Below are positions 1 to 61,210 of a DNA stretch of 64,000 bases, in pieces (the stretch's first letter is position 1; the number at the start of each line of letters is the position of its first letter). Origin of the DNA: a virus; IMG/VR virus record IMGVR_UViG_3300037424_000830, positions 1 through 64,000 of that record; one strand, 5' to 3'. A program made the position numbers and the translations under genes. Under the pieces are notes generated by a model. It was not told the origin of the DNA. It saw nothing but the letters and a program-made list of their open reading frames with translations, and did no database searches.

Positions 1-534
1 ACGCCATTAGTATCGGCAAGTTATACACTTCTGCCTAGCCTGTTTACAGATGGAGATACATTCTTTAGCCCTACAGTAACTGGTGGAGCAGCTAATCTCT
101 TCCCGTCATTGTTTACCGATGGCGATCTGTTCTACTCACCCACTGTTACGCGTGGTGCAATTACTCTTCTACCTAGTTTGTTCACCGACGCAGACGTATT
201 TTTTACGCCATTAGTAAGCACTTTCAATTCACTTGCACCAAGTTTGTTCAATGATGGAGATCTGTTTTATAGCCCAACTGTTCTCAGGGGGCCAGTTACC
301 CTCAACCCCATATTGTTCACTGATGGTGATCAGTTCTTTAGTCCTACGGTGAGTCCTGGCAGTGTGATTCTTGTACCAGAACTGTTTCTAGATGGTGATC
401 AGTTCTATGGACCAACGATAATACCTGGCGGAGTGTTTCTGTTGCCGGGTTTGTTTACTGATGGAGACCAGTTCTTCTCACCAATAGTTTCTGGCGGCCA
501 GCAGGCGTTTCGACGTATCATGATAATCAGCTAA
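1..534 (+). CDS. Tandem-repeat protein, 5' end outside the window (function unknown, possibly virion-associated)
   Basis: Frame 1 is open from nt 1, so the M at 109 in the ORF track is internal. There are at least seven consecutive 22-23 aa repeats with core LF(T/N/L)D(G/A)DxF(F/Y)(S/T/G)P(T/L/I)V. Stop at 532-534. Confidence 0.6.
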   Translation, partial: TPLVSASYTLLPSLFTDGDTFFSPTVTGGAANLFPSLFTDGDLFYSPTVTRGAITLLPSLFTDADVFFTPLVSTFNSLAPSLFNDGDLFYSPTVLRGPVTLNPILFTDGDQFFSPTVSPGSVILVPELFLDGDQFYGPTIIPGGVFLLPGLFTDGDQFFSPIVSGGQQAFRRIMIIS

Positions 535-19598: not shown

Positions 19599-21251
19599 AT
19601 GACTGACACACCGAATTTACTCCTTCCTTTGATGGATCTCACAACTGGAGATAAGGAAGGCATTTACTCGTCGGCAATGAAGTTCTTGGACTTCTTAGTC
19701 CAGCCAACTGTGATCAGTACTTTAAGTACTCCACCTGGTTCACCTGCAGAAGGTGCAAGATATCTTGTTGGGTCTTCTCCAACTGGTGCATTCGCAGGCC
19801 ATACGAATCACATCGCTTTTTACCTGGGCGGTTGGGTGTTCAGGACGCCTGTAGAAGGTTGGAAAATTTATGACCAAGGTGCAAACACATCAAAGATCTT
19901 TGATGGCGCTACTTGGTTTACCGATACGGGCGGGGGAGCTGGAACACCACCAACGTCATCAGATGACTTCAAAGACCCTTCAGCCAACGTTCGTGTAACA
20001 TCTGTTACTCTAAGTGCTCCGGGTGCTACCTTAGACGGCGTTACTATGGTGGCAGGGGATTCTTTCTTCCTCGATAATGGTGCAGCAACCGCTGGACTAT
20101 ATGATTGGAACGGTGCAGCAACCCCAGCTACACGCCGTGCAGATGCTGACACTAGCGCTGAAGTCACATCTGGAATGATTGTAACTGTAGCTCAGGGGAC
20201 TTCAGCAGGTACTCTATGGCAACTTACAACTCCTGATCCTATCACTCTTGATACTACAGCTCTCACTTTCACACAAGTCTCTGCAGCGACTTCAACCAGC
20301 TTTACAAACCAGGTAATCCAATACTCGGCATTCTCTTCAAATAACCTAAACTTGGCGACTTCTCACCGTAATAAAGTATTGCTAATCAATAATGGTACAA
20401 ACAACGTGACCATTACAGTCAATAGCGGTGTGATGGCAAACAACGCTGAAGTCAAAATTATTCGTCTCGGAACTGGTAAAGTCACAGTTATTGATGGCTC
20501 AGCTTCAATTAACACATCTTCTAGCGGTAGAGCTCTCAAGCGTTACGGTGGCATTCATTTGAAGCGCCGTACAAGCACTGTTTGGGAAACCCAATACATC
20601 GAAGCTTACCCTTCTATTACTGCGGTGAAAACTGCTAACTATACTGCAACAGCATTAGACGATGTTATTCCTTGCGATGCTTCTGGCGGAGCATTCACTG
20701 TTACCTTACCAACCGCAGCAAGTTCAACGGGAAAGATTCTGACCATCAAGAAGGTTGATGCATCACTCTTGCTAGTAACAATCGACGGTGACGGATCTGA
20801 AACGATCGATGGAGAGACAACCATTGCTCTCAACTTCAAGTATGAGAGCCTAACAATTCAGAGTGATGGTACAAACTGGCATGTATTACATGCTAATCGT
20901 GCTGTGCGCCACCAGTTCGCAATCTCTGATGAAACAACTGCACTTACTACAGGTACGGCTAAGCTCACGTTTAATATACCTGGTAAGATGCGTGTAGTAG
21001 CTATTCGGGGTGCTATTAACACTGTGTCTAGTTCTGGCATTCCAACTGTAGACATCAATGAAGCGGGTGTGTCTATTCTTACAGACAAGCTCACAATTGA
21101 CGCAAACGAGAAGTCATCATTAAATGCAGCTACTGCGGCTACTTTCAGTGATACAATTCTTGCGGATGATTCGGAAATAACGGCGGATATTGACGTGGCG
21201 GGTACAGGTGCAAAAGGCTTCAAGGTTACACTCATTGGGTGGTGGATCTGA
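19599..21251 (+). CDS. Tail fibre protein with a DUF2793-like N-terminal domain
   Basis: N-terminus PNLLLPLM...PPGSPAEGARYLVG...GAFAGHTNHIAFYLGGWVFRTPVEGWKIY follows the DUF2793 pattern known next to GTA-type tail genes. The rest is Thr/Ala/Gly-rich and beta-like. Confidence 0.6.
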   Translation: MTDTPNLLLPLMDLTTGDKEGIYSSAMKFLDFLVQPTVISTLSTPPGSPAEGARYLVGSSPTGAFAGHTNHIAFYLGGWVFRTPVEGWKIYDQGANTSKIFDGATWFTDTGGGAGTPPTSSDDFKDPSANVRVTSVTLSAPGATLDGVTMVAGDSFFLDNGAATAGLYDWNGAATPATRRADADTSAEVTSGMIVTVAQGTSAGTLWQLTTPDPITLDTTALTFTQVSAATSTSFTNQVIQYSAFSSNNLNLATSHRNKVLLINNGTNNVTITVNSGVMANNAEVKIIRLGTGKVTVIDGSASINTSSSGRALKRYGGIHLKRRTSTVWETQYIEAYPSITAVKTANYTATALDDVIPCDASGGAFTVTLPTAASSTGKILTIKKVDASLLLVTIDGDGSETIDGETTIALNFKYESLTIQSDGTNWHVLHANRAVRHQFAISDETTALTTGTAKLTFNIPGKMRVVAIRGAINTVSSSGIPTVDINEAGVSILTDKLTIDANEKSSLNAATAATFSDTILADDSEITADIDVAGTGAKGFKVTLIGWWI

Positions 21252-24311: not shown

Positions 24312-25001
24312 TTAAGTTTTGGGTTGGTTGATGAGGCTAAGAAGCTCTGAGCGTAAAGAATCAACGGTTCGAAACCTCCCCGACATCTTCGATGTGACTG
24401 TGTCAGAACAGAAATCTTCGATCCCCCGAAACTTGACGCAATAGTGGTCAGCAGTGATGATTACCGCAATGTCGTCGGTCTCGAGTACTACACTCAGGGC
24501 CGCAGATATTTGTTCTGTAAGGCGTTCTTGTACTTGTGGGCGCCGTGAAAAGTACTCCACAATACGGTTGAACTTTGACAAGCCGATCACTTTGTGCGCT
24601 GGAATATACGCAATATGAGCTTTGCCGATAATTGGCATGAAGTGATGTTCACATAGAGATTTCACCTCGATGTTACGCACCAAGATGACCTCGTCGTACT
24701 GGAAACCATTGGGATGGCAAGTGCATTCAGGGAACAGAGTGTAGTTGAGACCCCAGCAAATTTCGTCCAAGTACATCTTTGCAAGGCGTTGAGGAGTGTC
24801 CTTGATCGAAGGATCTTCCATGTTAAGCCCCAGTGTAAAGACAATCGAGTCAAAGTGATTCCCTAGTGCTGAAGCTTGTTCAGCGGCATACTTGGGTTTA
24901 TGAGCAGCTACGAGGTGTTCAGGACGCATCGGCGTTTCAATACCACGCTCGATAAGAAGTCTATGAACTTTAAGGCCGAGATCTCCGTTATAGTCAGTCA
25001 T
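24312..25001 (-). CDS. folE: GTP cyclohydrolase I
   Basis: CEHHFMPIIGKAHIAYIP...VIGLSKFNRIVEYFSRRPQVQERLTEQI is the hallmark FolE core. Confidence 0.85.
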   Translation of the reverse strand: MTDYNGDLGLKVHRLLIERGIETPMRPEHLVAAHKPKYAAEQASALGNHFDSIVFTLGLNMEDPSIKDTPQRLAKMYLDEICWGLNYTLFPECTCHPNGFQYDEVILVRNIEVKSLCEHHFMPIIGKAHIAYIPAHKVIGLSKFNRIVEYFSRRPQVQERLTEQISAALSVVLETDDIAVIITADHYCVKFRGIEDFCSDTVTSKMSGRFRTVDSLRSELLSLINQPKT

Positions 25002-29421: not shown

Positions 29422-29730
29422 TCAAGAACCTTTGTGGAGTGTTAAGACTTTGGATTCACCTCTTGAAGCTCCTAGAGCCCCATTAGCTCCATTAGCTTGT
29501 GAGTGTTCAGGACGCTTCGTACCATAGATTATTTGTTCTTGGAGAGTATTGAGTTGTCCGAGAAGCGATTTCCGATGAGGCCCGAGAACGTATGTAAGTT
29601 CACGTAAGGCTTTGTTAACATCTGAGACGGTAACTCGGTTAGGATGCCTTCCGTTTACTGCGAGACCAACATGCCAAATTACAAGGGTTTTCGATTCAAG
29701 GGTGTTATTTATCTGTGCTGCAAGATTCAT
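29422..29730 (-). CDS. Hypothetical protein
   Basis: 102 aa. Tightly packed between polA and nrdJ. No motif recognised. Confidence 0.45.
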   Translation of the reverse strand: MNLAAQINNTLESKTLVIWHVGLAVNGRHPNRVTVSDVNKALRELTYVLGPHRKSLLGQLNTLQEQIIYGTKRPEHSQANGANGALGASRGESKVLTLHKGS

Positions 29731-46603: not shown

Positions 46604-46640
46604 ATTATATTATAGCAAAAATAGGAGTCAATCAAGAGTC
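46604..46640 (-). promoter_or_regulatory. Sigma70-like promoter, class I, with three GANTC sites and a 10-bp inverted repeat
   Basis: Minus strand reads GACTCTTGATTGACTCctatttttgcTATAATATAAT. The inverted repeat atcaagagtc (46631-40) / gactcttgat (46653-62) flanks it. Confidence 0.5.
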
Positions 46641-46678
46641 AAAATTATGGTCGACTCTTGATCTTGGTGTTGTCATTG

Positions 46679-55309: not shown

Positions 55310-55531
55310 TTATTTGATTGGTGTTGGTGTTTTGTCGTACCATACATTGTGATGCATATCCTTACGTTTTAGAACTACGAGATCCTTGAACGGATAACAT
55401 CCGATTCCTGGTTGGTTTAGGTAGGCAATTAGCACCGTTCCGTTTTCTTTATGGTTCGCGAACACTACCCCCTCTTCGCCTTGCGATGTTCGAACGTGAA
55501 GTAGAGAACCTTTCAAGAGCTGTTGAGACAT
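55310..55531 (-). CDS. Hypothetical small protein
   Basis: 73 aa from ATG 55531. First gene after promoter 55571-55604. Confidence 0.45.
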   Translation of the reverse strand: MSQQLLKGSLLHVRTSQGEEGVVFANHKENGTVLIAYLNQPGIGCYPFKDLVVLKRKDMHHNVWYDKTPTPIK

Positions 55532-55570
55532 ATTTGAATCCTCGTCCTGTGTGATCTTGTTATTATAGAT

Positions 55571-55604
55571 ATTATATAGTGTTTTTAAGGGCAAATCAAG
55601 AGTC
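55571..55604 (-). promoter_or_regulatory. Sigma70-like promoter, class I
   Basis: Minus strand reads ttGGACTCTTGATTtgcccttaaaaacactaTATAAT, with a 17-nt spacer. Confidence 0.6.
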
Positions 55605-55690
55605 CAAATAGTGGTAAGTCTTATGTAGTTCGGAACTACTTTTTTAGGAATTTCCTCTTACAAGGCAGTAATTAAGTCTTAGAACTTTTT

Positions 55691-55740
55691 ATAGGTCCTT
55701 TTTAGAGTCCTTTAGTGTCGTTTAGCGTGGTCTTAGGTTG
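55691..55740. repeat. Five 10-bp phased boxes (TTTAGNGTSS)
   Basis: ataggtcctt tttagagtcc tttagtgtcg tttagcgtgg tcttaggttg. The second box carries AGAGTCC, the core of the class I promoters. Confidence 0.75.
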
Positions 55741-55860
55741 CAATACTAGGTTACGACGCGTCCTTGACACCGAAAGCAAGTGTTAAAGATGGTAAGTAGT
55801 CAGTAGTGAGGGGTAGTATTTCTAAGGGTAAGCATTCAAAAGCGTTAAGACTTTGAGAGA

Positions 55861-55880
55861 GGACTCTAAAGGACTCTAAA
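55861..55880. repeat. Tandem 10-bp direct repeat GGACTCTAAA x2 (reverse complement of the box at 55701)
   Basis: ggactctaaa ggactctaaa. Each copy contains a GANTC site (GACTC). Confidence 0.9.
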
Positions 55881-55914
55881 GGCAGGGTTACATAGTTAAC
55901 TTGTTGATTTTATT

Positions 55915-56105
55915 AGGGAATTTACTACTTTTACTTACTTTACTTAAGTTGATGTCGAAATTGAGAGAAAGATGTTGGATCCGGAAGGCACTGTAAAGAA
56001 CTAATGTAAAAAGACTATACTTTCCTTGTACAATCCTCACCCAACATCTTTTAAGTAAAAAGACTCCCAAAATAAGTAAACTAAGTAAACAAGTAAACGG
56101 CATTC
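55915..56105. repeat. Large imperfect dyad: TTTACTT x3 | AAAGATGTTGG ... CCAACATCTTT | AAGTAAA x4
   Basis: TTTACT(T) at 55921, 55930 and 55939. The 11-bp inverted repeat sits at 55968-55978 and 56041-56051. AAGTAAA at 56053, 56074, 56083 and 56091. The symmetry centre is near 56010. Confidence 0.75.
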
Positions 56106-56338
56106 CTATTTCAGGAAGAAAATCTTAAAACCTCGAGAAAACTAGTTTATACAGCTTTATACGGTTTTCGGTGGAAACTGAGGGCCCAGTCCACCAACCC
56201 ACCATGCCGAAAATTCTGAACTATCAAAAGATTTTTAGGTCATAAACCTGATGCATGTGGCGGGGTAATGGATAGCAGTAACGACGTCGGTCCTCTTGAA
56301 GGTCAACTAAAGCCGTATTGGACTAGAGGTTAACCTAG

Positions 56339-56575
56339 TCAGCGATCGATTATTACGGTAGCTGACTCACCAATTGCGTTGTATAGCTCGAACTTCACCT
56401 CCTGTAATGTTATAACGGAAGACTTTAAGAACCAATCTGAACGAGTCGGATCAGGGATCATAGGGAGAACTGCACGAGCACCCCTAAACCAAGCAGATAG
56501 TTCAGGTCGACTAGGTGTTGGCATTGGCTTAGTAAGAGTCGGGTCTAGGTTCTTAGTAAGGGCTACAACGGGCAT
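56339..56575 (-). CDS. Hypothetical small protein
   Basis: 78 aa from ATG 56575, with GGAGG 6 nt upstream. Confidence 0.45.
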   Translation of the reverse strand: MPVVALTKNLDPTLTKPMPTPSRPELSAWFRGARAVLPMIPDPTRSDWFLKSSVITLQEVKFELYNAIGESATVIIDR

Positions 56576-56596
56576 CTTATCCTCCAATTGAACCTT

Positions 56597-56804: not shown

Positions 56805-57050
56805 TCAGTGATCGGAATTCAAAAGGGCTCTGGCTGCCGCGCGTTCAGCAGCGATTAGACGTTTCTGTGGTGTGACTAACACTTTACGCACATGTTGGTA
56901 ACGAATGTCAAGGAATCTCGCAATAGCGGCTCGCGCATAGCCTTTAGAGTCGAGGTAACGAATGATCTGACTCTTGTTCTTGGCGTCAGCTTGAGCCAAC
57001 TGTTCAAGCGTAAGGTCCACTTCTTGCTTCTTGTCCTTCTCAGGTGTCAT
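56805..57050 (-). CDS. HTH protein, paralog 1 of 3
   Basis: SQIIRYLDSKGYARAAIARFLDIRYQHVRKVL. The same motif occurs in the genes at 57960 and 59204. Confidence 0.55.
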   Translation of the reverse strand: MTPEKDKKQEVDLTLEQLAQADAKNKSQIIRYLDSKGYARAAIARFLDIRYQHVRKVLVTPQKRLIAAERAAARALLNSDH

Positions 57051-57307
57051 GTTGGTGTTTCACCTCCTTCTTCGATCTTACGTTCAGGGAAACAGTAGTT
57101 AAACCAAGCGGTAGCAGGAAAGCCTTGGACACCAGCTAACGAAGCGAAAGCTTGAAACCTCTGAAGCGTCATTTCAGGGAGTTTCCTGAATTCTTCAGTG
57201 ATCTCGTCGAATTTCGGCTGACCCATATATTCGACAGTGTCAGCGATCGCTTTGTCAAGTTTGGCTTGTCCAGTAAGGTTTGAGTAGTCCACAGTATAGT
57301 GTGTCAT
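57047..57307 (-). CDS. Hypothetical small protein
   Basis: 86 aa. ATGA overlaps on both sides. Confidence 0.45.
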   Translation of the reverse strand: MTHYTVDYSNLTGQAKLDKAIADTVEYMGQPKFDEITEEFRKLPEMTLQRFQAFASLAGVQGFPATAWFNYCFPERKIEEGGETPT

Positions 57308-57489
57308 GTGAAGTCAACTCCTTGAATCAAGGGTTCGTCTGAACAGAGAAGAAGCGTTGTCAAGATCTCGTGTCGATTCGTACACTCACGATCTTCAAGG
57401 TCGTAAGAGTAAACCTCAGTCTTCAAGACCCACCCATCTCTTGTTTCGGTCTTGTGGATTTCGACATACACTCTTGTTTTCTTGGACAT
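57304..57489 (-). CDS. Hypothetical small protein
   Basis: 61 aa with a CAACCA-rich leader. Confidence 0.4.
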   Translation of the reverse strand: MSKKTRVYVEIHKTETRDGWVLKTEVYSYDLEDRECTNRHEILTTLLLCSDEPLIQGVDFT

Positions 57490-57521
57490 TTATGTTTCCT
57501 GTGGTTGGTTGTTGGATGAGT

Positions 57522-57549
57522 GGGTACGGTCTTTTAATCGACCGTACCC
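57522..57549 (-). terminator. Stem-loop without a U-tract (RNA stability or processing element, or a weak terminator)
   Basis: gggtacggtc / gaccgtaccc, 10-bp perfect stem with an 8-nt loop. Lies between stop 57560 and the next gene. Confidence 0.35.
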
Positions 57550-57559
57550 GTTGTTGTAA

Positions 57560-57784
57560 TTACTTGGCTGCGGCGAGCAGCTTGATCAAGTCGGTAGCCG
57601 AGAGCTTGTCGATGTAGGCTTTCTCGAGCTGCTCCCGCGTCATCAACTTAATCGCTTGCGTAATGGAAGTCTGGGTCGCTACCGGTAAGTCGGTGAACTT
57701 GACCTTCTTCGCGTCCGCCAGTGAAGAGTAAGACACGAGAAGGATCGCGACGATCGAAGCGATTGCAAAACGGTTCTTGGGCAT
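57560..57784 (-). CDS. Small secreted or membrane-anchored protein (signal-peptide-like N-terminus)
   Basis: MPKNRFAIASIVAILLVSYSSLADA followed by a hydrophilic domain. AGGAGATTATT before ATG 57784. Confidence 0.5.
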   Translation of the reverse strand: MPKNRFAIASIVAILLVSYSSLADAKKVKFTDLPVATQTSITQAIKLMTREQLEKAYIDKLSATDLIKLLAAAK

Positions 57785-57959
57785 AATAATCTCCTGTTGG
57801 TTGATGTTGGTTGTAGACAAGTACGGTCGACTAGAGATCGCGATCGTACTCTGTTGTTGTAAGTTACATGTTACGAACCGAATCGATTACACGTAACAGA
57901 GCGATGAATGACGAGAACGTCAAGAACACTCCGAACATGAACCATCGGATCATCGTTCG

Positions 57960-58331
57960 TTACGAAGCCTTCGACTTCGACGAAGCGATCTGAGTCAACA
58001 CGTTCCGGACGTGCTGATAGCGAACCAGCTTACCGTACTGAGCGGTAAGATGCTTCGAGATCTCAGCACGCTTGTGGCCGAGCGAATCCAGGTACTTGAT
58101 CTGAGAACTCTTGGTCATGAGCTTCAGCTCGTTCATCTCCTTCAGAGTCGGGAGACTGGTCTTCGGCGCTTCGGTCGGAACCGGAGTCGTAACCTCGATC
58201 ACCGAGTTCGGCTCGAGAGTCTGCTCCAGGTTGTTCGATTCGAGAACGGTCGGTTCCACTTCTGTCTGCGGTTCAACGATCGCGACCGCAGCGTTCTGGT
58301 TGGACTTGTGATTCTTGTGAGCACGTGACAT
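57960..58331 (-). CDS. HTH protein, paralog 2 of 3
   Basis: SQIKYLDSLGHKRAEISKHLTAQYGKLVRYQHVRNVL. Its initiation region AGGAGAATACTATGTC is identical to that of the gene at 59497. Confidence 0.55.
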   Translation of the reverse strand: MSRAHKNHKSNQNAAVAIVEPQTEVEPTVLESNNLEQTLEPNSVIEVTTPVPTEAPKTSLPTLKEMNELKLMTKSSQIKYLDSLGHKRAEISKHLTAQYGKLVRYQHVRNVLTQIASSKSKAS

Positions 58332-58436
58332 AGTATTCTCCTGTTGGTTGGTTCAAACTCGATCGTTATTGATCTCGTCAGCTACCGCATTACGGTAGGA
58401 GCGTCTCACGACGCTTTCGATCTCTCGATCTCGATC

Positions 58437-58655
58437 TTAGCTGGTCGGTTGCGTTGGTTGTTCTCTACCAGCTTGATCGACCACTTTGAGCTGTTCGATC
58501 GTACTTGTAACGAGCAGCGCGATCTCATTCCAATGTTCTTCGGTTGGATCACCAATGACCGCGAACGTTCCTTTGTATTCGTTCACAGCTCGATCACAAA
58601 TCGTATCGTACACATCGTTCGCGATCTTGTAGATCAGGTTGTTAAGATCTCTCAT
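58437..58655 (-). CDS. Small acidic protein, paralog of 58937-59137
   Basis: LIYKIANDVYDTICDRAVNEYK...VIGDPTEEHWNEIALLVT compares with LIHKIAINTYDTICEQVVQEYK...IIGDPTEEHWDEIAIIVT. Confidence 0.55.
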   Translation of the reverse strand: MRDLNNLIYKIANDVYDTICDRAVNEYKGTFAVIGDPTEEHWNEIALLVTSTIEQLKVVDQAGREQPTQPTS

Positions 58656-58725
58656 TGTAAGTTCCTTTGGTTGAACGGTTAAGTTATGTAACTAGTAACG
58701 TACTGTTCTTATTTTTATTATAGTA

Positions 58726-58754
58726 ATTATAGCTCAATTTTTAAGGACCCTCAA
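58726..58754 (-). promoter_or_regulatory. Sigma70-like promoter, class II
   Basis: Minus strand reads gagTTGAGGgtccttaaaaattgagcTATAAT, with a 17-nt spacer. Confidence 0.55.
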
Positions 58755-58778
58755 CTCTCAAAATTACGGTCTCTTTGC

Positions 58779-58877
58779 GGTTGACTAATTCGATCCGGTA
58801 AGTCCTTCGCAGTCGGTCGTCCAAACAACCTAAACGGACTGACTCAAACCGGTCCGGCCCGTCTCGGCCCCTAGAAG
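58779..58877. repeat. Intergenic module copy B
   Basis: GGTTGACTAATT at 58779-58790, AACCTAAA at 58827-58834 and CTAGAAG at 58871-58877. The spacing is identical to copy A. Confidence 0.7.
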
Positions 58878-58917
58878 AAAAGAGATCAGCTAGTACATTA
58901 GTGGTACTAGCTGATCT
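58874..58917 (-). terminator. Rho-independent terminator
   Basis: 14-bp perfect stem agatcagctagtac / gtactagctgatct. On the minus strand it is followed by CTTTTCTTC. Lies downstream of stop 58937. Confidence 0.7.
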
Positions 58918-58936
58918 GATCTTCGATCAGAGATAA

Positions 58937-59137
58937 CTAGTTACGGTAACCTCTGTTAACTCTATCGAGTTTAGTAACTACCCACGTAACTATGATCGCG
59001 ATCTCATCCCAGTGTTCCTCAGTGGGATCGCCAATGATCGCATTCACACATTTGTACTCTTGTACGACTTGTTCACAGATCGTATCGTAAGTATTGATCG
59101 CGATCTTGTGTATGAGTTCTTCACGCTTGTTGGTCAT
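58937..59137 (-). CDS. Small acidic protein, paralog of 58437-58655
   Basis: 66 aa from ATG 59137. See the paralog alignment under 58437-58655. Confidence 0.55.
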   Translation of the reverse strand: MTNKREELIHKIAINTYDTICEQVVQEYKCVNAIIGDPTEEHWDEIAIIVTWVVTKLDRVNRGYRN

Positions 59138-59203
59138 AGTGGTTTCCTTAGTTGGTTGGTAGAGGAGTGTGAGAGATCGATCTCTCACACTCGTTGTTGT
59201 TAC

Positions 59204-59497
59204 TTATTTCAATCCATCGATCGATGGTGCGCTATTTGGATCGATCATCGATTCGATCTTAGCGGTTGTGATAACGATCGTTGGTTGTTCGATCGCTTTC
59301 TTCGGTACTCTCAACAACTCGTTACGAACGTGTTGGTAGATAATGTTGAGATGTTTCGCGATCTCAGATCTGGTGAATCCTTTCGAATCGAGATACCTGA
59401 TCTGAGATACTTTCGTTACGAGACCCGCTTCGATCATCTGAGAGATGGTTGGAAGAGAGTTGGTCGTTGTGGTGGTTGAAGCGATAATCGTAGACAT
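59204..59497 (-). CDS. HTH protein, paralog 3 of 3 (first leftward early gene)
   Basis: SQIRYLDSKGFTRSEIAKHLNIIYQHVRNELL. AGGAGAATACT before ATG 59497. Confidence 0.55.
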   Translation of the reverse strand: MSTIIASTTTTTNSLPTISQMIEAGLVTKVSQIRYLDSKGFTRSEIAKHLNIIYQHVRNELLRVPKKAIEQPTIVITTAKIESMIDPNSAPSIDGLK

Positions 59498-59588
59498 AGT
59501 ATTCTCCTTTCGAGAGAGAGTTGTGGTTGGTTGGTACTTTATATTTAGTTTCTTATTTAATTTCTTATTTATTATTTATTATGAGTTA

Positions 59589-59617
59589 ATTATATATTAA
59601 ATTTATATGTGTCTCAA
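59589..59617 (-). promoter_or_regulatory. Leftward early promoter TTGAGA-N17-TATAAT
   Basis: -35 at 59612-59617 (plus strand tctcaa) and -10 at 59589-59594 (plus strand attata). It lies in the AT-rich divergent region. Confidence 0.5.
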
Positions 59618-59835
59618 TAAGCAAATTTATATTCCTAGAGAAATCTTTAGAAAAGAATATAATACTATTAGATATCTTTATATTACTATTTCAATAATTT
59701 TCTAGTACGGAATTACTAGCGATAGGAATTTATAGCACTCAGACCCTACTATTTCCTAAAATTTTTTGCAAAACCTGTTGACACCCTGTAAGCACTGAAT
59801 ATTTTCCTAAAAAAATTTCTGGTACAACCTTTAGG

Positions 59836-59856
59836 CACCTAACACCTAACACCTAA
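59836..59856. repeat. (CACCTAA)3 heptamer repeat
   Basis: Three perfect copies. TAA is placed in three successive frames. Confidence 0.9.
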
Positions 59857-59920
59857 CACTAGCTTTTAGTGTTCAGGACGCATCATCTAAAATTTTTAGT
59901 GGTCAGCCCTACTATTCCTA

Positions 59921-59949
59921 TTGATATGCCTTGTAAGATACTGTATAAT
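59921..59949 (+). promoter_or_regulatory. Rightward promoter TTGATA-N17-TATAAT upstream of the packaging genes
   Basis: TTGATA at 59921-59926 and TATAAT at 59944-59949, about 36 nt upstream of ATG 59985. Confidence 0.6.
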
Positions 59950-59984
59950 ATTGAGAAACCAGACCGAGTTAATCGAGGTTTCGT

Positions 59985-60968
59985 ATGAATATGGAAGTTC
60001 TTGCACCGAAGAAACTCTCGCGGGAAGTCATTTCGGCGCATCGGGATTTCATAGGTAAAGCCAATACCATCCTGGAAGAGCGTGAGAATGGCCTCAAAAC
60101 GCGGGTCGAAGTATTTCGGGAGTTATGCTCTCGTGTACCAACCAGTGAGTTGGGATTACCTGCATATCTGTATCGGATCGATTTGATCCCCGGCGATTTC
60201 GACACATACGAACCTGATCAGAAGGCTGCAATCCTCCAAGCTGCTTCGATCGGGATTGACCTTGACGATGGGATTCCTCGCCTCGACACAGGTGCAGTCT
60301 TGTGGGATAAGTTTCCTTGGGAATCTGATTCGGCATATGAGTACTTCCATCGGTATGTAGACATGCCGAATCTGCAGTCCTCTGTTAATGAACCATCCGC
60401 AGAGTCTGAGCGCGCTAAGATCCAGATCTCGATTCGTGATATACGAGTTCTTGCCGAGCTTTATCGTCAAGCTCCTGGAGCTCTAGATGTCGCCACGATC
60501 CAAGAATTTGCAGTTTCATACAACTGGCAAGTGCGAGTTAAAGCCTACGACTTGTATATTGCCGCAGCCTATCGCAAATACCGCGAACGTGAGCAGTATT
60601 CAGTTGAGACTCAACACTATCGGATGGCTGGGAAACTACTAGCCAAGGCGAACGATGAACTCGTACGGCGCCTTGAAAGCGAAGATCTTCGCACCGACAT
60701 GAAGGAGCGAGACCTCATTGATTTGGTCAAGTCAATGACTCAGATCCAGCGTGTTTCCATCGGCCTTAGCACAGGCCAAGGAAAGAACGACGTTGAAAGC
60801 GAAACACCTCGCAATGCTTCGCTGGAACTTACTTTGCGTACTATTGCAAAGAATGCCGGCGAACAAGCAAAGGAAATCCAAGATGATGATAGAATCCAAG
60901 CGATCTTAGAGGATCCTGAAGCCTTGATCCAAGCTCAAGAGCTTATCATCAAGCTCAACCGCAAATAA
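59985..60968 (+). CDS. Putative terminase small subunit
   Basis: 327 aa and largely helical. It is the first gene of the rightward operon, two small ORFs upstream of terL. The call is by position only. Confidence 0.4.
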   Translation: MNMEVLAPKKLSREVISAHRDFIGKANTILEERENGLKTRVEVFRELCSRVPTSELGLPAYLYRIDLIPGDFDTYEPDQKAAILQAASIGIDLDDGIPRLDTGAVLWDKFPWESDSAYEYFHRYVDMPNLQSSVNEPSAESERAKIQISIRDIRVLAELYRQAPGALDVATIQEFAVSYNWQVRVKAYDLYIAAAYRKYREREQYSVETQHYRMAGKLLAKANDELVRRLESEDLRTDMKERDLIDLVKSMTQIQRVSIGLSTGQGKNDVESETPRNASLELTLRTIAKNAGEQAKEIQDDDRIQAILEDPEALIQAQELIIKLNRK

Positions 60969-60991
60969 CTGAGTGTAAACAGGAGGTTCTC

Positions 60992-61210
60992 ATGACAACG
61001 GATGTACGCATTACAGTGCCAGATCACGTATCGCGTGAAAATGGCGTCAAAATTGAAGTCCAAGAACAACTCCCCAACGGAGAATGGAAGACTACACAGC
61101 TCCTTGACCCACTTCAATCTGGCCAAGGGGCTACGAAGTACCTTCACTCGACTAACCGTATTGTCCTCACCGCAGTTAACGTCGTGAACCCCTTTATGAA
61201 GGCTTCTTAA
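60992..61210 (+). CDS. Hypothetical small protein
   Basis: 72 aa with an AGGAGG RBS. Confidence 0.5.
   Translation: MTTDVRITVPDHVSRENGVKIEVQEQLPNGEWKTTQLLDPLQSGQGATKYLHSTNRIVLTAVNVVNPFMKAS

What the first reader, a model, noticed from the sequence alone, without database searches (positions are those of the whole stretch)
55605..56338. A 750-nt non-coding region with phased iterons and a large dyad: candidate replication origin or regulatory hub
This is the longest gene-free stretch in the window. It lies between the small early genes and the operon that starts at promoter 55571-55604. It contains:
- five 10-bp phased boxes TTTAGNGTSS (55691-55740), the second being TTTAGAGTCC
- the exact reverse complement repeated in tandem 150 bp away (GGACTCTAAA x2, 55861-55880)
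- an imperfect dyad of about 190 bp centred near 56010, made of TTTACTT x3 at 9-bp spacing, an 11-bp inverted repeat AAAGATGTTGG/CCAACATCTTT, and AAGTAAA x4

The AGAGTCC/GGACTCT core is the same one attached to the class I promoters. One DNA-binding protein may therefore recognise both. Helical phasing, inverted arrays and AT-richness are what iteron-type origins and complex operators look like. The only ORF here (55888-56103) looks like an artefact.
Basis: seen in the sequence. Interest (0 to 1): 0.62.

Follow-up and report, generated by a model that had tools for sequence, protein, structure and literature searches.

The report
Conserved gene-free repeat module in phage
A roughly 800-base stretch without genes, between the early genes and the replication genes of an uncultivated 69-kb phage, is a real and conserved element built from short repeated boxes and two large inverted repeats; it is most likely a DNA control site such as a replication origin, but its function is not shown.

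Summary
Positions 55532-56338 carry no gene. They hold 3+2 inverted 10-bp boxes (not 5+2), a second ~190-bp dyad made of TTTACTT/AAGTAAA units, and an inner 11-bp inverted repeat.

The main new result is comparative. About ten related uncultivated phages (primase 50-65% identical) keep a gene-free 0.5-1.2 kb module in their early-gene region. It has the same order of parts:
- a GC-rich block
- a long inverted repeat whose arms differ between phages
- a CU-rich spacer
- a nearly invariant 22-nt motif, CTAATnAnnTCAAC(A/T)AGTTAAC, which contains the genome's only perfect IHF consensus
- a second dyad
- a sigma70-type promoter

I found no conserved ORF, Rfam match, tRNA or DnaA box, and no integrase, ParA/ParB or phage RNA polymerase gene.

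Neither strand shows a G·U bias, and box units are swapped between the arms. Both points favour a DNA-level protein-binding site, such as an origin or early/middle control region, over an RNA, but an RNA role is not excluded. A more AT-rich repeat region at 59.5-60.0 kb is a rival origin site.

The scan had not noted this element on other DNA.

The parts
55532..56338 (-). Whole gene-free module. 'Sense' means the minus strand, the direction of the early and middle operons.
   Evidence: ORF lists. No tRNA or Rfam match. Homologous gene-free gaps in relatives. No conserved reading frame.
56140..56236 (-). Block 1. Sense strand reads AAAAATCTTTTGA...GGTGGACTGGGCCCTCAGTTTCCACC...AAGCTGTATAAAC, a conserved A5-T4 junction followed by a GC-rich palindromic core.
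   Evidence: Aligned in alignments A1 and A6 with L044, L046, L047, L048, L069 and L072.
55921..56098 (.). Dyad 2. TTTACTT-type boxes on one arm (56053-56098, read on the minus strand) face AAGTAAA-type boxes on the other (55921-55951).
   Evidence: Folds: minus strand -56.7 kcal/mol (z -5.25), plus strand -43.3 kcal/mol (z -2.7). An equivalent inverted repeat lies in the same place in 8 related loci.
55963..56051 (.). Inner helix of dyad 2 (AAAGATGTTGG 55968-78 / CCAACATCTTT 56041-51), together with the conserved pyrimidine block CCAACATCTTTCTCTC on the sense strand (55963-55978).
   Evidence: Relatives pair GAGTG(GG)/(CC)CACTC at the aligned place, which is a change on both sides. The CCTACCACTCTTTCTC block is conserved.
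55895..55916 (-). Nearly invariant 22-nt motif CTAATAAAATCAACAAGTTAAC. It contains AATCAACAAGTTA, which matches the IHF consensus WATCAANNNNTTR.
   Evidence: TCAAC(A/T/G)AGTTA is invariant in 8 aligned phages and occurs once per locus, twice in L069 and L070. It is the only perfect IHF consensus in the 68.7-kb genome.
55701..55880 (.). Dyad 1. Three 10-bp boxes TTTAGNGTSS (55701-55730) face two boxes GGACTCTAAA (55861-55880).
   Evidence: Folds: plus strand z -3.5, minus strand z -2.9. L072 carries the same 2+2 GGACTC boxes at 10-bp spacing, but there they flank the other dyad.
55755..55770 (-). Degenerate copy (GTGTCAAGGACGCGTC) of the 13-16-nt motif M1, GTGTTCAGGACGC, at the centre of dyad 1.
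   Evidence: Exact M1 lies at the aligned position in L044 and L048, with one change in L047.
55571..55605 (-). Class I promoter GGACTC-TTGATT-N17-TATAAT, which starts the operon leading to the ligase and primase genes.
   Evidence: A promoter is conserved at the downstream end of the module in L044, L046, L069, L070 and L072, and weakly in L048.
55626..55646 (+). Small hairpin GTAGTT-CGG-AACTAC followed by T6, terminator-like on the plus strand only.
   Evidence: Read. It falls below the scanner's GC threshold. Its significance is unknown.
56339..56587 (-). Gene for an 82-aa (or 78-aa) protein that lies immediately upstream of the module in most relatives.
   Evidence: Homologs lie directly before the gap in L044, L046, L047, L048, L054 and L072, but not in L069, L070 or L071. 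The predicted fold has no significant match.
56805..57050 (-). The helix-turn-helix (HTH) paralog nearest the module, a candidate box-binding protein.
   Evidence: 54-63% identical to relatives. The family motif KTKSxxIRYLxSxGxxRxxIAxxLxxxYQHVRNVL is conserved. The model has a three-helix HTH that superposes on the IstA N-terminal HTH at 0.9 A over 37 residues.

Best explanation
The stretch is a conserved, non-coding DNA module that acts in cis. It marks the boundary between the early genes and the replication-gene operon of a strictly lytic, host-RNA-polymerase-dependent phage.

My preferred mechanism is an origin-type nucleoprotein site:
1. Short boxes (TTTAST, GGACTC/TTTAGNGT) on both arms of two cruciform-prone dyads are bound cooperatively by a phage early DNA-binding protein. 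Candidates are the helix-turn-helix (HTH) paralogs encoded just upstream, or the C-terminal part of the primase-helicase.
2. The invariant 22-nt motif between the dyads is a bending site for a host IHF-like protein and brings the arms together.
3. The AT-rich arms (71-72% AT) melt or extrude.
4. The class I promoter next door fires away from the module. This supplies negative supercoiling and expresses the ligase and primase-helicase genes.

What is shown: the anatomy, its statistical non-randomness, its conservation and synteny, the absence of coding potential, and the absence of hallmarks of other systems.

What is inferred: DNA-level rather than RNA-level action, which protein binds, and replication initiation itself.
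For: - Gene-free in this phage and in relatives. nhmmer finds a homologous core in 10 loci, including two that were not used to build the profile (L070 at 1e-7, L051 at 0.003). tblastx similarity between gaps appears in several frames and on both strands, so it is nucleotide-level conservation.
- The order of parts is conserved: GC block, inverted repeat, CU-rich spacer, 22-nt motif, second dyad, promoter.
- The inverted repeat is the top-scoring one in its locus in 4 of 8 loci, and within the top 1.2% of windows in a fifth (L044).
- Boxes are concentrated here. L051 has 6-9 tandem 10-bp units TAGTAAACCS/TATCAAACCS with no arm of equal length opposite them.
- In L044 the TTTACTT and TTTAGTT units are swapped between the arms. 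This breaks base pairing but keeps the boxes.
- There is no strand bias in G·U pairs, and the antisense fold is as stable or more stable in 7 of 8 phages.
- The motif M1 and the box TTTAGTGT recur in the divergent promoter region upstream of the small terminase gene (terS). M1 also recurs inside genes, in either orientation relative to their transcription, so it acts as a DNA signal.
- The genome's only perfect IHF consensus lies in the invariant motif.
- Three of the five most AT-rich 100-bp windows lie in or at the edge of the module: 55877-55976 and 56049-56148 within it, and 55554-55653 spanning the class I promoter.
- The replication genes lie directly downstream.
Against: - There are no replication data of any kind.
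- No DnaA boxes.
- Cumulative GC skew has no clear turning point here.
- The boxes are 7-10 bp units at 6-10 bp spacing, not classical 17-22 bp iterons.
- Box sequences and arm sequences differ between relatives.
- The 59.5-60.0 kb divergent region is more AT-rich (87%), also carries repeats and M1, and adjoins a GATC cluster, so it is at least as good an origin or pac candidate.
- Changes on both sides of the inner helix show selection for pairing. An RNA would explain that as well as a cruciform would.
- In L054 no promoter separates the module from the next gene, so there it is probably transcribed.
Confidence: 0.35

Rival explanations
1. The module acts as RNA. It would be a long structured 3' UTR or intercistronic element of the early transcript, such as an RNase III-type processing and stability site as in the T7 early region, or a stand-alone large non-coding RNA. 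Its CU-rich, anti-Shine-Dalgarno-like internal loop and its invariant 22-nt tail would be the functional single-stranded parts.
For: - In this phage no terminator lies between the 82-aa gene and the module.
- The minus-strand fold of dyad 2 has z -5.25 and the whole region z -4.2.
- Long near-perfect helices of 13-18 bp, nested, lie at the same place in all relatives.
- The inner helix changes on both sides between phages.
- The pyrimidine block is always on the sense strand.
- In L054 the module must be read through to express the next gene.
Against: - No Rfam match in this phage or its relatives.
- RNAalifold finds no consensus structure on the sequence alignment.
- There is no excess of G·U over A·C on the sense strand, and the antisense fold is as good or better in 7 of 8 phages.
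- Strong intrinsic terminators sit at the start of the module in L072 and L051, and a terminator-like hairpin is seen by eye in L069, though the scan did not call it.
- No conserved internal promoter.
- Swapped box units in L044 break pairing.
- The same boxes and M1 recur at DNA sites in either orientation.
Confidence: 0.25
2. The module is a transcriptional control region for the early-to-middle switch. It would be an extended operator, silencer or insulator on which an early HTH protein polymerises from the box arrays. The protein would either repress read-through from the early promoters or activate or repress the class I promoters, which carry the same GGACTC box.
For: - The 10-mer GACTCTTGAT occurs 5 times in the genome, always at promoter-like sites.
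- GGACTC boxes lie in the module (2+2) and next to the -35 element of the adjacent promoter.
- L072 has the same 2+2 boxes plus a boxed promoter. L048 and L069 have neither.
- HTH paralogs lie directly upstream, in 3-4 copies per phage.
- M1 lies about 40 nt upstream of the rightward promoter's -35 element.
Against: - 0.5-1.2 kb is very large for an operator.
- The clade-wide conserved parts (22-nt motif, inverted repeat, GC block, CU-rich spacer) are not the GGACTC boxes.
- The other class I promoters (33371, 53660) work without such a module.
Confidence: 0.2
3. The module is a DNA-entry or DNA-end element. Either it is a T5-like untranslated repeat region that ends a first-transferred early segment (an injection-stop type site), or it is part of concatemer processing or packaging.
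For: - About 3.5-3.9 kb of small early genes with host-type promoters lie between the divergent region next to the small terminase gene (terS) and this module.
- As in T5-like phages, the untranslated repeat region is better conserved than the neighbouring ORFs and is full of direct and inverted repeats (Davison, bioRxiv 10.1101/866236).
- M1 occurs in inverted orientation at both borders of the early segment, at 55755 (-) and 59869 (+), and likewise in L044.
Against: - It lacks the paired DnaA boxes that define the T5 iss region.
- PHROGs and Pfam matched none of the early proteins tested to any described family, apart from weak HTH hits.
- The physical genome ends are unknown. The 127-bp end overlap looks like a circular-assembly artefact.
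Confidence: 0.1

Closest known systems
Untranslated repeat regions (Repeat Regions 1-3, 'iss') of the first-step-transfer DNA of phage T5 and its relatives (Davison, bioRxiv 10.1101/866236)
   Same: A large (0.2-1.2 kb) untranslated stretch among or after small early genes. It is packed with direct repeats, inverted repeats and palindromes, keeps the same order of elements across related phages, and is better conserved than the neighbouring ORFs. Its function has not been proven by experiment there either.
   Different: No DnaA or DnaA* boxes. No sequence similarity. This phage is unrelated to T5-like phages: its nearest cultured relatives are Brevundimonas siphophages, at 36-44% identity for polymerase and primase. 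Whether the module lies in a terminal repeat is unknown.
Phage and plasmid replication origins built from repeated initiator sites, an AT-rich segment and an IHF site (for example lambda ori, P1 oriR, and P4 ori/crr, which is bound by a primase-helicase). This comparison rests on general knowledge.
   Same: Repeated short sites in direct and inverted arrays, AT-rich arms, an IHF-type consensus, an adjacent promoter, and replication genes next door. These include a P4-alpha-like combination of a Toprim-like domain (DUF3854) and a P-loop region in one 836-aa protein.
   Different: The units are 7-10 bp rather than 17-22 bp, with irregular spacing. The module is not inside an initiator gene. No initiator has been identified. 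The primase gives no significant match to any solved structure. There is no replication evidence.
RNase III processing hairpins between early genes of T7-like phages. This comparison rests on general knowledge.
   Same: Long imperfect hairpins between cistrons of a host-RNA-polymerase early operon, with stem sequence free to vary while pairing is kept.
   Different: The element is 150-230 nt with a 50-150-nt unpaired, conserved spacer, against roughly 60 nt in T7. In some relatives terminators precede the module. There is no G·U strand signature.

Membership tests
Iteron-type replication origin | Three or more direct repeats of about 17-22 bp, in helical phase, that bind the initiator | tested here: not met
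   The units are 7-10 bp. There are 3+2 at a 10-bp period in dyad 1, and an 8-9 bp period in dyad 2 (6-9 bp in relatives). L051 has 6-9 tandem 10-bp units.
Iteron-type replication origin | An adjacent AT-rich DNA-unwinding segment | tested here: inconclusive
   Three of the five most AT-rich 100-bp windows (71-72% AT) lie in or at the edge of the module. The richest window (87%) is at 59538-59637.
Iteron-type replication origin | Host-factor sites (DnaA boxes, IHF) | tested here: inconclusive
   No DnaA or DnaA* box in the module or in any relative's gap. There is one perfect IHF consensus, the only one in the genome, inside the invariant motif. It is perfect in 3 of 8 phages and one base off in the others.
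Iteron-type replication origin | Replication starts here, and the initiator binds the repeats | not testable with these tools
GC skew is uninformative.
T5-type injection-stop / FST repeat region | A conserved untranslated repeat region within the early (pre-early) segment | tested here: met
   compared.
T5-type injection-stop / FST repeat region | Paired DnaA/DnaA* boxes in the inverted repeats | tested here: not met
T5-type injection-stop / FST repeat region | Located inside a long terminal repeat, with two-step DNA transfer | not testable with these tools
   Only a 127-bp assembly overlap is seen. No read data were available.
Any described RNA family (Rfam 15, including GOLLD, ROOL, tRNA and tmRNA) | A covariance-model match | tested here: not met
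   No hit at gathering score in the window. Only chance-level hits at E<=5 in the region and at E<=1 in three relatives. No tRNA or tmRNA.
Structured RNA in general | A consensus structure with covariation and a strand-specific G·U signature | tested here: inconclusive
   Each sequence alone forms a hairpin, and the inner helix changes on both sides between phages. RNAalifold finds nothing on the MAFFT alignment, and there is no G·U strand bias.
attP integration site | An integrase or recombinase gene in the genome | tested here: not met
   No PF00589 match in the 68.8-kb genome. I did not search for a serine recombinase. None appeared among the proteins scanned.
Partition centromere (parS/parC type) | ParA/ParB-type partner genes | tested here: not met
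   No ParB_N or AAA_31 match.

The most novel reading that the evidence does not exclude
The module is transcribed and is a new family of large (350-700 nt) structured phage RNA. It would consist of a GC-rich clamp, a 150-230-nt hairpin that exposes a conserved CU-rich, anti-Shine-Dalgarno-like segment, and an invariant 22-nt single-stranded tail. It would act in trans, for example to shut off translation of early or host mRNAs, or to bind a host protein.
Probability: 0.15. Interest if true: 0.7.

Novelty: new member of a known kind. Interest (0 to 1): 0.42.

Why it matters
Origins, packaging sites and control regions of uncultivated phages are almost never annotated, because they have no protein signature. 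This work delimits one such cis element and resolves it into parts. It is shown to be conserved across a clade of 60-73 kb phages (contig lengths) known almost only from metagenomes. That gives concrete probes: the 22-nt motif, the TTTAST and GGACTC boxes, and the M1 13-mer. It also gives candidate binding proteins for experiments. If the module is the origin, it would define how a P4-alpha-like primase-helicase phage starts replication without DnaA boxes. If it is an RNA, it would be a new large phage RNA.

Tried and rejected
- **tRNA, tmRNA and Rfam families:** none found.
- **Missed protein gene:** the only ORF is unconserved, and similarity between gaps is independent of frame and strand.
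- **Close relatives:** none in the phage database, IMG/VR or JGI contigs by DNA, by the flanking small proteins or by the ligase. Relatives were reached only through the primase in the large protein collection.
- **The exact 20-mer GGACTCTAAAGGACTCTAAA:** it hit only an unrelated giant-virus contig, which I treat as chance.
- **CcrM/GANTC reading of the GACTC core:** GANTC sites are not enriched.
- **DnaA-dependent origin or a T5-like iss:** no DnaA boxes.
- **attP, centromere, or phage RNA polymerase or sigma-factor promoter:** no integrase, ParA/ParB, single-subunit RNA polymerase or sigma region 4.
- **M1 as a host uptake or REP-type repeat:** the genome-collection scan gave only single scattered hits across unrelated taxa.
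- **A conserved internal sigma70 promoter,** for example around TATATACC: found in single phages only (L046 antisense, L069 and L070 sense), not conserved by position.
- **Structures of the 82-aa protein and the helix-turn-helix (HTH) paralog:** no fold match for the first and only a generic HTH for the second.
- **PDB or NCBIfam homologs** of the primase, small terminase (TerS) or large terminase (TerL) that might indicate initiator or packaging type: none.
- **Brevundimonas phage StAshley:** too distant, and no homologous module.
Full report
**Context**

The window is the first 64 kb of a 68,823-bp IMG/VR virus record. Its two ends overlap by 127 bp. I read that as a circular-assembly overlap, so the physical ends are unknown.

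- Genes run on the minus strand from about 59.5 kb down to 23.8 kb. These are small early genes followed by ligase, an 836-aa primase-helicase-like protein, an SNF2 helicase, an exonuclease, Sak4, PolA, RNR and preQ0 genes.
- Genes run on the plus strand from 59,985 onward: a small terminase-like gene, TerL, portal and structural genes.
- No integrase, single-subunit RNA polymerase, sigma region 4, ParB or ParA was found. The phage therefore appears lytic and dependent on the host RNA polymerase.
- The nearest cultured relatives are Brevundimonas siphophages StAshley and MaInes, at only 36% (PolA) and 44% (primase) identity.

**The observation**

The stretch between the 82-aa gene (56339-56587, minus strand) and the next gene is free of credible ORFs.

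- The next gene probably starts at the ATG at 55531, behind an AGGACGAGGA ribosome-binding site. The listed TTG at 55594 sits inside the promoter GGACTC-TTGATT-N17-TATAAT (55605-55571). The gap is therefore 55532-56338.
- The repeat finder confirms GGACTCTAAA x2 (55861-80). It also confirms the complement TTTAGAGTCC (55701) within a 35-nt, 77% inverted repeat, and the second dyad with arms 55921-51/56068-98 and inner arms 55968-85/56034-51.
- Only three boxes match TTTAGNGTSS.
- Motif counts show strong local concentration: 5 of 10 TTTAGNGT sites and 6 of 12 TTTACTT/AAGTAAA sites in the genome lie here.
- GANTC sites are not enriched.

**Known classes**

- ARAGORN and Rfam find nothing in the window, in the region at relaxed thresholds, or in three relatives.
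- There are no DnaA boxes.
- The only perfect IHF consensus of the whole genome is AATCAACAAGTTA at 55897.

**Relatives**

DNA and small-protein searches in the phage database, IMG/VR and JGI contigs found nothing close. The primase has hundreds of homologs in the large protein collection, the closest at 61-65% identity. I fetched contigs for several of them, and for homologs of the 82-aa protein.

- Synteny holds. A helix-turn-helix (HTH) paralog is followed by the 82/87-aa gene and then by a gene-free gap. The gap is 964 nt in L046, 1197 nt in L047, 1072 nt in L048, about 800-1250 nt in L044, 480 nt in L054 and 640 nt in L072.
- In L069 and L070 the same element lies 1.2-1.5 kb upstream of that gene.

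**Conserved anatomy, read on the sense strand (the window's minus strand)**

Alignments A1, A3 and A6 show the following order of parts:
1. An A5-T4 junction and a GC-rich palindromic block.
2. A long inverted repeat.
3. Inside its spacer, TATATACC...CCTAC(C)ACTCTTTCTC, always pyrimidine-rich on the sense strand.
4. A nearly invariant motif CTAATnAnnTCAAC(A/T)AGTTAAC. The 13-mer TCAAC(A/T/G)AGTTA(A/G)(C/G) occurs once per locus, and twice in L069 and L070.
5. A second dyad. In L044, L047, L048 and this phage it is centred on GTGTTCAGGACGC, which I call M1.
6. A TTGAT(T/G)-N17/18-TATAAT promoter.

An nhmmer profile of part of this core detects all the sequences used to build it. It also detects L073 (nearly identical to L072), L070 (E 1e-7) and L051 (E 0.003). 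It does not detect L052, L053, L071 or the Brevundimonas phage. tblastx similarity between gaps appears in several frames and on both strands, so no protein is encoded. The flanking proteins are only 35-63% identical, so the 22-nt motif is under strong constraint.

**DNA or RNA?**

In favour of a structure:
- Every phage has a strong hairpin at the same place. Examples are nested perfect helices of 13 and 18 bp in L054, 18 bp in L072 and 16 bp in L069.
- The inverted-repeat score exceeds every other window of the locus in 4 of 8 loci, and all but 1.2% of windows in a fifth, L044.
- The inner helix differs on both sides between this phage (AAAGATGTTGG/CCAACATCTTT) and L044, L047 and L048 (GAGTG(GG)/(CC)CACTC).

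In favour of DNA-level protein binding rather than RNA:
- G·U pairs are no more frequent on the sense strand than on the antisense strand. The antisense strand folds as well or better in 7 of 8 phages, although in this phage dyad 2 favours the sense strand.
- The arms are made of repeated units (TTTACTT, TTTAGTT, TTAGTTA), not arbitrary sequence. In L044 two units are swapped between the arms, which costs base pairs but keeps the boxes.
- L051 carries 6-9 tandem 10-bp units with no matching opposite arm.
- L072 has the same 2+2 GGACTC boxes at 10-bp spacing as this phage, but placed around the other dyad.
- TTTAGTGT and M1 recur in the divergent promoter region upstream of the small terminase gene (terS) (59864-59910). 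That position is conserved in L044 and L060.
- M1 also occurs inside coding regions in either orientation relative to transcription.
- Strong intrinsic terminators precede the module in L072 and L051. A terminator-like hairpin is seen by eye in L069, though the scan did not call it.
- There is no positionally conserved internal promoter.
- RNAalifold finds no consensus fold on the sequence alignment. This is weak evidence, because MAFFT cannot align arms that differ in sequence.

Against an exclusively DNA-level reading:
- In this phage no terminator separates the 82-aa gene from the module.
- In L054 no promoter separates the module from the next gene. The module is therefore probably transcribed at least in some phages.

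**Which DNA function?**

The module resembles an origin in several ways:
- boxes in inverted arrays
- AT-rich arms: three of the five most AT-rich 100-bp windows lie in or at its edge
- an IHF-type site
- a neighbouring outward-firing promoter
- replication genes just downstream

On the other hand, there are no replication data and GC skew is uninformative. The divergent region at 59.5-60.0 kb is a serious rival. It has the most AT-rich 100 bp of the genome (87%), repeats, M1 and an adjoining GATC cluster.

A regulatory reading is supported by the GGACTC box shared with five GACTCTTGAT promoter-like sites. It is also supported by a loose co-occurrence of box arrays with boxed promoters among relatives. 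It does not explain the size of the module or its clade-wide parts.

The closest described analogue is the set of untranslated repeat regions in the first-transferred DNA of T5-like phages. These are likewise better conserved than the ORFs around them, but they are defined by paired DnaA boxes, which are absent here.

**Candidate binding proteins**

- The HTH paralogs have three copies here and up to four in L044, and share the motif KTKSxxIRYL...YQHVRNVL.
- The model of the nearest paralog has a three-helix HTH that superposes on the IstA N-terminal HTH.
- The 82-aa protein has an alpha/beta model with no significant structural match.
- Neither result identifies the function.

**Verdict**

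This is a real, conserved, non-coding cis module. I give about 0.35 to an origin-type nucleoprotein site, 0.25 to an RNA role, 0.2 to a transcription-control region and 0.1 to a DNA-entry or packaging role. I leave the remaining 0.1 unassigned. The decisive data are read coverage and termini, transcription, protein binding and replication mapping, and none could be obtained here.

Noticed in passing
window 19836-19851 (+), 24915-24930 (+), 29503-29518 (+), 59869-59884 (+), 55755-55770 (-): A 13-mer, GTGTTCAGGACGC ('M1'), occurs four times exactly, all on the plus strand, plus one degenerate copy on the minus strand. About 0.002 copies are expected by chance. Three copies lie inside genes, in either orientation relative to their transcription. 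The copy about 100 nt upstream of the small terminase gene (terS) is conserved in position in relatives L044 and L060, and a relative's structural region (G001) has two copies on one strand. It is not a repeat of any host genome scanned. It could be a nick, packaging or protein-binding signal.
   Followed up: partly
window 59498-59984: The divergent control region holds the most AT-rich 100 bp of the genome (59538-59637, 87% AT). It also holds CACCTAA x3, two TTTTAGTG(T/G)TCAG boxes 31 bp apart, and back-to-back near-consensus promoters. It is a rival candidate for the origin or the pac site.
   Followed up: partly
window 57000-61000: GATC is enriched 2-4 fold, at 12-23 sites per kb against about 5.5 elsewhere. 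CGATCG is also frequent.
   Followed up: partly
genome ends (window 1-127 and genome 68697-68823): The 'direct terminal repeat' is exactly 127 bp, a size typical of an assembler k-mer overlap. The true ends and packaging mode are unknown.
   Followed up: no
window 55310-55594 (-): The listed TTG start overlaps the promoter. The real start is probably the ATG at 55531, behind an AGGACGAGGA ribosome-binding site, which gives a 73-aa protein.
   Followed up: partly
L051:2206-2340: A more distant relative carries 6-9 tandem 10-bp units (TAGTAAACCS / TATCAAACCS) in its early-region gap. This is the clearest iteron-like array in the clade.
   Followed up: no
window 56805-57050, 57960-58331, 59204-59497 (-); L044, L046, L047, L048, L054: An expanded family of small early helix-turn-helix proteins shares the motif KTKSxxIRYLxSxGxxRxxIAxxLxxxYQHVRNVL. 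There are 3-4 copies per phage. No Pfam, PHROG or NCBIfam assignment passes its threshold.
   Followed up: partly
L043:4284-4339 (giant-virus MAG contig): An unrelated giant-virus contig contains the identical tandem GGACTCTAAAGGACTCTAAA in an AT-rich intergenic context. I treat this as coincidence.
   Followed up: partly
window 46631-46662: Two copies of the class I -35 box GACTCTTGAT lie on opposite strands 22 bp apart, suggesting a divergent promoter pair.
   Followed up: no
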